The notes: generated from the sequence alone by a model not told the origin. 64,000 nucleotides of DNA from Escherichia phage vB_EcoM_CRJP21 (OQ708376.1), one strand, 5' to 3'. Shown: positions 56,605 through 56,937, counted from the first letter of the stretch. Numbers and translations are program-made.

Positions 56605-56937
56605 ATGCTAAAATTAAATATTCAAGGTAATGTTGATTTTACTACAGCAATTCAAGATGCAATTTACGATGGTGCTAAATGTCTTGAAAAGTTCCGTACT
56701 TCAACTGTAATGGATATTGAAGTTCATGTGAAGAAAGAGCATAAGTCTCAATACTCTGTGACTATAACATCAGGTAGTAAATCAGTTACTGCCGATGCAG
56801 CAGATTTATACAAAGCAATTGGTGATTCATTTGAAAAAATGGAAACTGTATTCAGTAAAGACAAAAGCATTAAATTACACCGCCGAAACCATCCAGAACA
56901 CCCAGTTCTTAATGATTTGACAGAAAACGAAGAGTAA
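56605..56937 (+). CDS. ribosome hibernation promoting factor / RaiA-like protein
   Basis: MLKLNIQGNVDFTTAIQDAIYDGAKCLEKF ... aligns along its length with bacterial HPF/YfiA. Confidence 0.7.
   Translation: MLKLNIQGNVDFTTAIQDAIYDGAKCLEKFRTSTVMDIEVHVKKEHKSQYSVTITSGSKSVTADAADLYKAIGDSFEKMETVFSKDKSIKLHRRNHPEHPVLNDLTENEE

What the first reader, a model, noticed from the sequence alone, without database searches (positions are those of the whole stretch)
56605..56937. Ribosome hibernation factor (HPF/RaiA) homologue in a lytic phage
The 110-aa product aligns along its length with bacterial HPF/YfiA. A phage copy could stabilise or silence host ribosomes during infection. It is followed by a strong terminator and preceded by a lysozyme-like gene.
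Basis: partly seen in the sequence, partly recalled or inferred. Interest (0 to 1): 0.55.

Follow-up and report, generated by a model that had tools for sequence, protein, structure and literature searches.

The report
Known phage ribosome hibernation-factor gene
This jumbo E. coli phage carries a real but diverged copy of the bacterial protein that parks idle ribosomes; databases and a 2019 paper already record such phage genes, and what they do during infection has never been tested.

Summary
Window 56605-56937 (+) is a 110-aa gene with a Shine-Dalgarno site. A LysM-lysozyme gene lies 16 nt upstream and a strong, conserved terminator hairpin follows it.

The product belongs to the HPF/RaiA family. 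Pfam PF02482 scores 38.3 bits against a cut-off of 23.7. [quoted passage not shown]

The window is an Asteriusvirus jumbo coliphage, 99.7% identical to 121Q. RefSeq and UniProt already name this gene, and Mizuno et al. 2019 described phage HPFs, so the finding is not new.

The copy is conserved in synteny across Rak2-like jumbo phages and is under purifying selection (dN/dS 0.12-0.30). Its shape is RaiA-like: an HPF core plus a tail that is basic and then acidic. It keeps three lysines of the helix-2 rRNA-contact ladder but has lost the arginine that touches m4Cm1402.

The most likely role is a RaiA-like occupant of the 30S decoding channel on idle host ribosomes. This is inferred, not shown.

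Seen in passing: a conserved, probably two-state leader RNA upstream of the lysozyme gene; a promoter whose -35 box lies in the gene's last codons; and a recombination patch covering codons 1-78.

The parts
56605..56937 (+). Coding sequence of a 110-aa HPF/RaiA-family protein. [quoted passage not shown] A basic segment (85-97) and an acidic, disordered end (98-110) follow it.
   Evidence: ORF. Pfam PF02482 above its gathering score. AF2 model with pLDDT 82. Top 35 Foldseek PDB hits are all HPF/RaiA/pY. dN/dS 0.12-0.30.
56591..56598 (+). Shine-Dalgarno sequence (aaggtagg), ending 6 nt before the ATG.
   Evidence: Read from the sequence. An equivalent AAGGAAGGTG or GAGG motif is present in relatives.
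56946..56976 (+). Intrinsic terminator: stem AAAGGGACAGA / TCTGTCCCTTT, loop TTAAT, then a T-run.
   Evidence: dG -17.8 kcal/mol, z -4.2. The pattern scan finds the same hairpin. Relatives keep a hairpin plus T-run with other stem sequences (EJP2, Hallingskeid, L009, Munch, XbC2).
56917..56945 (+). Sigma-70-type promoter-like site, TTGACA-17-TATACT. The -35 box lies in the codons for Asp-Leu-Thr-Glu and the -10 box starts three bases after the stop codon. It would serve the downstream genes.
   Evidence: 11 of 12 consensus matches. Conserved in all relatives; in XbC2 it sits after the stop codon. The same promoter-plus-hairpin layout occurs at 46251-46310. In the related phage PA5oct, TTGAC/TATAATA promoters lie around RNA-seq transcription start sites, PMC7318152.
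55662..56588 (+). Upstream gene for a LysM plus lysozyme protein with an N-terminal hydrophobic segment. It is probably co-transcribed with the HPF gene: the gap is 16 nt and holds no terminator.
   Evidence: Pfam PF00959 and LysM. The start is as annotated in 121Q. The pairing with the HPF gene is kept in Asteriusvirus, Hallingskeid, L009 and XbC2.
55518..55545 (+). Promoter-like site with an extended -10 (TTGTAA-16-TGcTATACT) in front of the lysozyme-HPF unit.
   Evidence: Scan. The TGCTATA(C/A)T motif is conserved in A4, TH47 and Turkey5.
55578..55612 (+). Conserved leader element: GTAGAAAGTCC, then 3-4 nt, then GAGGCTTT(G)TGCAAA, then GCCTC. It can form two mutually exclusive helices.
   Evidence: The blocks are invariant in 11 distinct leaders from four phage groups. 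Helix P2 is 93.9% paired with 2 compensatory pairs. The alternative helix is 100% paired but invariant. No Rfam family matches. There is a single copy in the window.
56595..56838 (.). Recombination patch running from the ribosome-binding site to codon 78. It is 20% divergent from the slurp01/SP27 allele inside otherwise near-identical DNA.
   Evidence: Sliding identity and a list of the differences.

Best explanation
The gene encodes a diverged member of the HPF/RaiA (Ribosomal_S30AE) family. It has been carried for a long time by Rak2-like jumbo phages, always in a block with a lysozyme gene and, a few genes further on, a CCA-adding enzyme gene. I hold family membership at about 0.95.

The most likely mechanism is inferred, not shown. 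Like E. coli RaiA, the protein would sit in the channel between head and body of the 30S subunit of ribosomes that carry no mRNA or tRNA. It would contact 16S rRNA through its beta-sheet and the lysines of helix 2. Its basic tail would run towards the site where RMF binds.

That would keep idle host ribosomes as intact 70S monomers. They would be shielded from YbeY and RNase R and from RMF/HPF-driven 100S dimer formation through the long infection. Initiation factors, including the IF3 homologue these phages encode, could release them.

The confidence below is for ribosome binding of the RaiA type. I hold the protective, anti-dimerisation purpose at about 0.3.
For: Family membership:
- Pfam PF02482 scores 38.3 bits against a cut-off of 23.7.
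- The 35 best PDB fold matches are all HPF/RaiA/pY, most of them ribosome-bound.
- hhalign gives probability 98.5 against short HPFs and 97.9 against RaiAs. The RaiA alignment runs through the tail (100 columns).

The gene is functional:
- dN/dS is 0.12-0.30.
- It keeps its position in Asteriusvirus, EJP2, Erwinia phage Hallingskeid, Munch-like Salmonella and Klebsiella phages, and Mimasvirus XbC2.

Evidence bearing on ribosome binding:
- Conservation is highest in strand beta2 (0.87), helix alpha2 (0.84) and the basic tail (0.90), and lowest in helix alpha1 (0.68). In cryo-EM structures of HPF and YfiA the ribosome contacts lie mainly on alpha2 and the beta-strands (bioRxiv 10.1101/2025.10.07.680626).
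- K78, K85 and K87 are invariant and align with E. coli HPF K80, K87 and K89.
- The tail has RaiA length: 41 residues after the D-x-Y motif, against 42 in RaiA and 24 in HPF. It also has an acidic end like RaiA.

Established knowledge:
- E. coli hibernation factors block YbeY and RNase R (PMC7913689).
- The YfiA tail heads for the RMF site.
- IF3 homologues are reported in 121Q and PBECO4 (PMC5259590).
Against: - No binding data exist for this protein.
- The rV5 phage HPF was absent from 70S and 100S fractions after high-salt washes.
- The residue equivalent to Arg83, described as the single essential arginine contacting m4Cm1402, is Thr81 here. Across the phage lineage it is Thr, Ser, Glu, His, Lys or Val.
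- The residues equivalent to those contacting uS9 and m2G966 (H55, E60, H62) are Thr, Ser and Ser.
- The curated NCBIfam equivalog scores are missed by a wide margin.
- Expression timing is unknown.
- Part of the C-terminal conservation (Leu-Thr) is explained by the embedded -35 box rather than by protein function.
Confidence: 0.55

Rival explanations
1. It is a translation silencer used offensively. The protein would act as a classical hibernation factor that shuts ribosomes down, possibly with host RMF to form 100S dimers. It could do this early, as host shut-off, or late, to stop translation before lysis. Co-expression with the lysozyme-like gene would fit the late version.
For: It shares the family and fold of proteins that block the A and P sites. 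Its core is slightly closer to short HPFs than to RaiAs (hhalign E 3.6e-15 against 4.7e-13; NF007780 19.1 bits against NF007654 15.5 bits). It lies 16 nt downstream of a lysozyme gene with no terminator between them.
Against: Blocking the decoding site would silence phage mRNAs as well. The RaiA-length tail points away from co-operation with RMF. In Munch a terminator and another gene separate the lysozyme gene from the HPF gene, so the coupling is not universal. The unit's promoter is sigma-70-like, and it is not known to be late.
Confidence: 0.2
2. It is a repurposed RNA-binding protein that no longer acts on the ribosome. The HPF fold, which resembles a double-stranded-RNA-binding domain, would bind a phage or host RNA. 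One candidate is the conserved leader of its own transcription unit, which would make it an autoregulator.
For: Arg83 and the uS9-contact residues are lost. The rV5 HPF was not found on ribosomes. The lineage is isolated: only 45 of 1.84 billion representative proteins reach E 1e-3. A highly conserved structured leader precedes the unit. Weaker fold matches include dsRBD proteins (ranks 36-50).
Against: The conserved surface coincides with the elements that contact the ribosome in HPF and RaiA. Three of the five helix-2 basic residues are invariant. In Munch the leader and the HPF gene are in separate units. No case of a non-ribosomal HPF-fold protein is known to me.
Confidence: 0.15
3. It is a passenger gene with no role in infection, kept only by linkage.
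For: Four Salmonella phage assemblies (SD-15_S21, SD-2_S15, SD-1_S14, SD-6_S16) carry internally deleted or truncated copies.
Against: The gene is under purifying selection. It keeps its position across several genera at 19-45% identity. The SD assemblies show many other small deletions and split genes, so they may be assembly artefacts.
Confidence: 0.05

Closest known systems
E. coli RaiA (YfiA, protein Y), 113 aa
   Same: It has the same fold and overall build: an HPF core plus a C-terminal extension of the same length that is first basic and then acidic. hhalign aligns 100 columns including the tail. RaiA occupies the 30S decoding channel, stabilises 70S and heads towards the RMF site.
   Different: Identity is only about 22-25%. 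The RaiA equivalog model scores 15.5 bits against a cut-off of 158. Arg83 is replaced by Thr. The beta2-beta3 hairpin carries a lineage-specific invariant stretch, HVKKEHK. The gene is phage-encoded, and its expression is not tied to stationary phase or cold shock as far as is known.
E. coli short HPF (YhbH), 95 aa
   Same: This is the best sequence and profile match to the core (phmmer E 4e-4; hhalign E 3.6e-15; Foldseek TM 0.70/0.80 to 6h4n_x). K80, K87 and K89 are conserved.
   Different: HPF stops at the end of helix 2, whereas the phage protein has about 17 more residues. The HPF equivalog model scores 19.1 bits against a cut-off of 125. HPF works with RMF to make 100S dimers, which a RaiA-type tail is expected to hinder.
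HPF of phage rV5 and other Vequintavirinae (Mizuno et al. 2019, PMC6375957)
   Same: It is a phage-encoded PF02482 protein of about 105 aa in a large virulent coliphage. Its function is also untested beyond a single binding assay.
   Different: It is a separate lineage. The rV5-type copies are 42-44% identical to E. coli HPF and cluster with gammaproteobacterial HPFs. The copy here is not picked up by E. coli HPF in tblastn at E 1e-3, and the reverse search fails too. The genome context is also different.
S30EA/HPF gene of Cronobacter phage GAP32 and Xanthomonas phage XbC2 (Mimasvirus)
   Same: In XbC2 it has the same fold and the same position, after a lysozyme gene preceded by the same leader, with the CCA-adding enzyme gene a few genes further on. 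Mizuno et al. already listed the GAP32 protein.
   Different: Identity is about 19%. The tail is acidic but lacks the Leu-Thr-Glu end, and the downstream promoter lies after the stop codon.
Translational control of the T4 lysozyme gene e by RNA structure (McPheeters et al. 1986; cited from my own knowledge)
   Same: This comparison is for the leader only. In both cases a phage lysozyme gene has a ribosome-binding site that can be buried in RNA structure.
   Different: There is no sequence similarity. No internal late promoter has been identified here. The element is a conserved pair of alternative helices, not a simple hairpin.

Membership tests
HPF/RaiA family (Pfam PF02482 Ribosomal_S30AE) | A profile match above the curated gathering score that covers the domain. 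| tested here: met
   38.3 bits against 23.7, E 2.3e-9, profile positions 2-84 of 88. PHROG 8990 'S30EA' gives E 1.7e-5.
HPF/RaiA family (Pfam PF02482 Ribosomal_S30AE) | [quoted passage not shown] | tested here: met
   On an AF2 model (pLDDT 82, pTM 0.70), the elements are E2-8, H14-30, E36-46, E49-56, E59-65 and H68-84. The top 35 Foldseek PDB hits are all HPF/RaiA/pY. This is a prediction, not a solved structure.
HPF/RaiA family (Pfam PF02482 Ribosomal_S30AE) | The basic ladder on helix alpha2 that contacts 16S rRNA (E. coli K80, K87, K89, K91). | tested here: met
   K78, K85 and K87 are invariant in the clade and align with K80, K87 and K89. K91 aligns with Ile89, but Lys90, Arg93 and Arg94 follow.
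HPF/RaiA family (Pfam PF02482 Ribosomal_S30AE) | Arg83, the arginine contacting m4Cm1402. | tested here: not met
   It aligns with Thr81. Elsewhere in the phage lineage the residue is Thr, Ser, Glu, His, Lys or Val. Some non-phage family members also lack it, so it is not universal.
HPF/RaiA family (Pfam PF02482 Ribosomal_S30AE) | The beta3/beta4 residues contacting m2G966 and the uS9 C-terminus (T53, H55, E60, H62). | tested here: inconclusive
   The equivalents are Ser51, Thr53, Ser58 and Ser60, judged from the alignment. These positions also vary among bacterial HPF and YfiA proteins.
HPF/RaiA family (Pfam PF02482 Ribosomal_S30AE) | Binds the 30S decoding channel and blocks tRNA and mRNA. 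| not testable with these tools
   This needs sedimentation, cryo-EM or translation assays.
Short HPF (YhbH) equivalog, NCBIfam NF007780 | A score above the curated equivalog cut-off. | tested here: not met
   19.1 bits against 125.
RaiA (YfiA) equivalog, NCBIfam NF007654 | A score above the curated equivalog cut-off. | tested here: not met
   15.5 bits against 158. TIGR00741 (yfiA family) scores 30.7 against 40.9.
RaiA (YfiA) type | A C-terminal extension beyond the short-HPF end that runs towards the RMF site. | tested here: met
   There are 41 residues after the D-L-Y motif, against 42 in RaiA and 24 in HPF. The extension is basic (KSIKLHRRNH) and then acidic (DLTENEE). hhalign aligns it with the RaiA tail. 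Its path on the ribosome has not been tested.
Long HPF (Gram-positive type) | A C-terminal dimerisation domain of about 60 residues. | tested here: not met
   The protein has only 110 aa, and residues 102-110 are disordered in the model.
Dodecin (Pfam PF07311) | A profile match above the gathering score, and the dodecin fold. | tested here: not met
   21.6 bits against 22.5, covering residues 12-55 only. No dodecin appears among the fold matches.

The most novel reading that the evidence does not exclude
The protein is not a hibernation factor in the usual sense but a phage counter-measure against ribosome-directed dormancy and damage. By occupying the decoding channel with a RaiA-type tail, it would stop host RMF from locking ribosomes into 100S dimers. 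RMF rises, for example, during the DRT2 defence response (PMC13434031). It would also shield 16S rRNA from host nucleases, while the phage IF3 returns ribosomes to phage mRNAs. Its expression, together with the lysozyme gene, would be set by a two-state leader RNA that has not been described before.
Probability: 0.2. Interest if true: 0.65.

Novelty: already known. Interest (0 to 1): 0.28.

Why it matters
Why many large virulent phages carry hibernation-factor homologues is still an open question. In this search, 130 phage records matched E. coli HPF, and about 43 more carry the jumbo-phage lineage. The only published assay was negative.

This lineage is a workable test case. It infects E. coli K-12 (phage Sharanji). 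The protein is small, conserved and built like RaiA. The same phages encode IF3, a CCA-adding enzyme and tRNAs. A clear result would show whether phages protect, release or silence host ribosomes.

As a genome-scan finding it adds nothing beyond existing annotation. The leader RNA seen in passing may be the more original lead.

Tried and rejected
1. Dodecin. The Pfam hit falls just under its threshold. I rejected it because the fold search returns only HPF/RaiA proteins.

2. Assignment to the HPF or the RaiA subfamily. NCBIfam equivalogs and hhalign against small HPF and RaiA sets do not separate the two. The core leans towards HPF and the tail towards RaiA, so this stays unresolved.

3. Positive selection as the cause of the divergent 5' two-thirds of the gene. 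I rejected this. The patch has 21 synonymous against 19 non-synonymous codon changes, whole-gene dN/dS is 0.17, and the boundaries are sharp inside near-identical flanks. That pattern indicates an allele swap by recombination.

4. The leader as a general promoter motif. Rejected, because the 64-kb window holds a single copy.

5. The leader as a known RNA family. No Rfam match comes near any gathering score.

6. The leader as coding sequence. Rejected, because 1-nt indels separate the invariant blocks and no peptide is conserved.

7. The leader as a copy of host DNA or rRNA. blastn finds no match in 5,426 E. coli genomes. A scan of 596 Gb of genomes gave 2 hits in unrelated MAGs, about what I estimate chance alone would give.

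8. RNAalifold on a MAFFT alignment found only a 6-bp hairpin with no covariation. The compensatory changes appeared only after the XbC2 sequence was added.

9. Literature searches for experimental work on jumbo-phage HPFs found only annotations and Mizuno et al. 2019.

10. Phage tRNA genes near the locus. There are none in the window.

11. P0012, a 1605-aa repeat protein, ranked high in the profile search. Its score is the sum of 29 weak repeat matches, so I did not treat it as a homologue.

Full report
**Observation.** Window 56605-56937 (+) is an ATG-to-TAA ORF of 110 aa. A Shine-Dalgarno sequence, aaggtagg, lies at 56591-56598. The ORF starts 16 nt after the stop codon of a gene matching Pfam Phage_lysozyme (E 1.6e-11) and LysM. 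A hairpin follows it: 56946-56956 pairs with 56962-56972, and a T-run extends to 56976. The hairpin folds at -17.8 kcal/mol, z -4.2, and none of 200 shuffles folds as well.

**Where the window comes from, and what is already on record.** The 1.8 kb around the gene is 99.7% identical to Escherichia phage 121Q. It is 97-99% identical to PBECO4, phAPEC6 and about 20 other 350-kb coliphages of the genus Asteriusvirus.
- RefSeq names the 121Q and PBECO4 genes 'HPF/RaiA family ribosome-associated protein'. Other records say 'ribosome-associated inhibitor A' or 'sigma 54 modulation protein/S30EA'.
- UniProt/BFVD calls the PBECO4 protein 'Ribosomal subunit interface protein'.
- The genome paper on phage Sharanji lists the gene among translation factors (PMC11895373).
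- Mizuno et al. 2019 (PMC6375957) reported HPF genes in the jumbo phage GAP32 and in rV5-like phages. They found that rV5 HPF expressed in E. coli was absent from 70S and 100S fractions after high-salt washes.
- tblastn with E. coli HPF finds 130 further phage records.

The presence of an HPF homologue in this phage is therefore known. Its function is not.

**Family membership.**
- Pfam PF02482 matches residues 5-87 at 38.3 bits against a cut-off of 23.7.
- The stricter NCBIfam models are all missed: TIGR00741 scores 30.7 against 40.9, the HPF equivalog 19.1 against 125, and the RaiA equivalog 15.5 against 158.
- Its 35 best Foldseek matches in the PDB are all HPF, RaiA or plastid pY. Most are ribosome-bound, at 13-29% identity for most of them; TM to E. 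coli HPF 6h4n_x is 0.70/0.80.
- Profile-profile comparison gives probability 98.5 (E 3.6e-15, 86 columns) against a set of short HPFs. Against a set of RaiAs it gives 97.9 (E 4.7e-13, 100 columns, running through the tail).
- A near-threshold dodecin hit is not borne out by the fold search.

I conclude that the protein belongs to the family but is an orthologue of neither host protein.

**The lineage.**
- A profile of the clade, searched against 1.84 billion representative proteins, found only 45 hits at E 1e-3.
- The nearest hits outside Asteriusvirus (P0013-P0016, P0018) are again proteins of 103-116 aa with a basic-then-acidic end.
- P0013 lies on a 103-kb metagenomic contig with this gene order: RNA ligase, DUF2828, 2H phosphoesterase, lysozyme, HPF, CCA-adding enzyme, NUDIX, glutaredoxin, gp13.
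- Its relatives are in Salmonella phages Munch, 7t3 and SE_PL and in Klebsiella phage fENko-Kae01.
- Erwinia phage Hallingskeid and Xanthomonas phage XbC2, which is in the genus of GAP32, have the gene in the same place.
- Pairwise dN/dS within the lineage is 0.12-0.30 (my Nei-Gojobori script).

The gene is old in this phage group and under purifying selection.

**Anatomy compared with the host proteins.** A 2025 cryo-EM preprint (10.1101/2025.10.07.680626) places the ribosome contacts of HPF and YfiA mainly on helix alpha2 and the beta-strands. It names K80, R83, K87, K89 and K91 as the strictly conserved basic contacts. R83 touches m4Cm1402. T53, H55, E60 and H62 touch m2G966 and the uS9 C-terminus.

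The HPF sequence is confirmed by the alignment. The RaiA sequence has one mismatch, shown.

Using the alignments, the phage equivalents are:

| E. coli residue | Phage equivalent | Comment |
|---|---|---|
| K80 | K78 | invariant in the clade |
| R83 | T81 | not basic in nearly the whole phage lineage (Lys in EJP2 only) |
| K87 | K85 | invariant |
| K89 | K87 | invariant |
| K91 | I89 | followed by K90, R93, R94 |
| T53 | S51 | |
| H55 | T53 | |
| E60 | S58 | |
| H62 | S60 | |

Conservation within the lineage is lowest in helix alpha1 and the loop after it (0.68, 0.67). It is highest in beta2 (0.87), alpha2 (0.84) and the basic tail (0.90). That pattern is what continued use of the ribosome-contact surface would produce.

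The tail has RaiA length: 41 residues after the D-x-Y motif, against 42 in RaiA and 24 in HPF. Like RaiA, it ends in acidic residues. In structures the YfiA tail heads for the RMF site.

**Transcription unit.**
- No terminator separates the lysozyme and HPF genes.
- A promoter-like site with an extended -10 lies at 55518-55545.
- The terminator after the HPF gene is kept in distant relatives with different stem sequences.
- The last codons of the gene (gaC TTG ACA gaa, Asp-Leu-Thr-Glu) contain a consensus -35 box. TATACT follows 17 nt later, three bases after the stop codon, and is directly followed by the hairpin.
- This layout is conserved in all relatives. In XbC2 the promoter lies after the stop codon, and there the protein ends in acidic residues without Leu-Thr. 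The Leu-Thr conservation is therefore at least partly a DNA-level constraint.
- The same promoter-then-hairpin design occurs at 46251-46310.
- In the related phage PA5oct, RNA-seq placed TTGAC/TATAATA promoters around transcription start sites, and the phage relies on host RNA polymerase (PMC7318152).

**Mechanism.** What is shown: family, fold, selection, synteny, and which contact residues are kept or lost. What is inferred: that the protein occupies the 30S decoding channel of vacant ribosomes as RaiA does (about 0.55). A further inference is that this serves to keep idle host ribosomes as intact 70S monomers, protected from nucleases and from RMF-driven dimerisation (about 0.3).

Support for that purpose comes from established knowledge, not from this locus:
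- Hibernation factors block YbeY and RNase R (PMC7913689).
- RMF rises in a defence response.
- These phages encode IF3.

The rivals are an offensive translation silencer (0.2), a repurposed RNA-binding protein (0.15) and a passenger gene (0.05).

**Things seen on the way.**

1. *A conserved leader RNA.* Upstream of the lysozyme gene, window 55578-55612 carries GTAGAAAGTCC, then 3-4 nt, then GAGGCTTT(G)TGCAAA, then GCCTC.
   - The blocks are invariant in 11 distinct leaders, from phages whose HPF proteins share about 19-45% identity with this one.
   - The element is non-coding, single-copy in the window, absent from Rfam and absent from E. coli.
   - Two mutually exclusive helices fit every sequence. 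A hairpin with a GCAA loop is 93.9% paired, against at most 63% in slid registers. It has two compensatory pairs, both from the single XbC2 lineage.
   - The alternative helix, between the two invariant blocks, is 100% paired but shows no covariation.
   - Minimum-energy folds bury the ribosome-binding site in several relatives.
   - In Munch the leader precedes the lysozyme gene, but a terminator and one gene separate it from the HPF gene. It therefore belongs to the lysozyme gene first.

2. *A recombination patch.* Against phage slurp01 the window is almost identical for 0.9 kb upstream and 0.4 kb downstream. Positions 56595-56838 differ at 50 sites: 21 synonymous and 19 non-synonymous codons. 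This is an allele swap.

**Limits.**
- All structural statements rest on a predicted model and on alignments at 20-30% identity.
- Contact residues are taken from one preprint.
- Promoter calls are consensus matches, and over the whole scanned region their number is what chance gives (47 found against 43.7 expected).
- There are no expression or binding data for any member of this lineage.

Noticed in passing
window 55546-55661 (core 55578-55612); also L006 about 976, L007 about 2982, L009 about 4986, L020 about 2501-2592, L021 about 2501-2552: A conserved non-coding leader lies upstream of the LysM-lysozyme gene. Its invariant blocks are GTAGAAAGTCC and GAGGCTTT(G)TGCAAA, and a hairpin of variable sequence precedes them. 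Two mutually exclusive helices fit all 11 distinct sequences: one has two compensatory pairs (from XbC2 only) and the other is invariant. There is no Rfam match, a single copy in the window and no similarity to E. coli DNA. It may be a two-state translational control element.
   Followed up: partly
window 56917-56976 and 46251-46310: A consensus sigma-70-type promoter is immediately followed by a terminator-like hairpin and T-run, so the predicted transcription start falls in or next to the 5' arm of the stem. At 56917 the -35 box lies inside the last codons (Asp-Leu-Thr-Glu) of the HPF gene. This layout is conserved in relatives from several genera.
   Followed up: partly
window 56595-56838; a second patch at 57489-57580: Short patches of about 20% divergence sit inside DNA that is otherwise nearly identical to a sister phage. 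The first patch differs from slurp01 and the second from 121Q. These are allele swaps by recombination. The first covers the ribosome-binding site and codons 1-78 of the HPF gene.
   Followed up: partly
protein P0012 (sequence): A 1605-aa predicted protein consists of about 29 tandem copies of a 53-aa unit whose first residue is either M or L, followed by an unrelated end. It scored against the HPF profile only by adding up weak repeat matches. It looks like a rolling-circle or 'nearly endless ORF' product, or an assembly artefact.
   Followed up: no
L008 (Salmonella phage SD-15_S21) 2001-2225, and hits H59, H60, H62: Four Salmonella phage assemblies of 310-326 kb carry in-frame deleted or truncated HPF genes. 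The SD-15_S21 copy has 74 aa and lacks residues 22-57. The one neighbourhood inspected, in SD-15_S21, also has split or missing genes. These are either real deletion variants or low-quality assemblies.
   Followed up: no
window 55083-55493, 58537-59649, 59758-60159, 60990-61466: The HPF gene sits in a block of RNA and nucleotide housekeeping genes. These are a 2H-phosphoesterase-like protein (PF22547, 26 bits against a cut-off of 27), a CCA-adding tRNA nucleotidyltransferase, a NUDIX hydrolase, a glutaredoxin and a macro-domain protein (the last three as annotated in 121Q). More distant relatives have an RNA ligase and a DUF2828 protein just upstream.
   Followed up: partly
window 56991-57386, 57576-57992, 57979-58401: Three small genes downstream of the HPF gene look like tandem paralogues. 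Two share a C-terminal motif (GTLP...F[IM][ED]DTFGID...Y). The first hits several PHROGs of unknown function in its C-terminal part. Their number varies between related phages.
   Followed up: no
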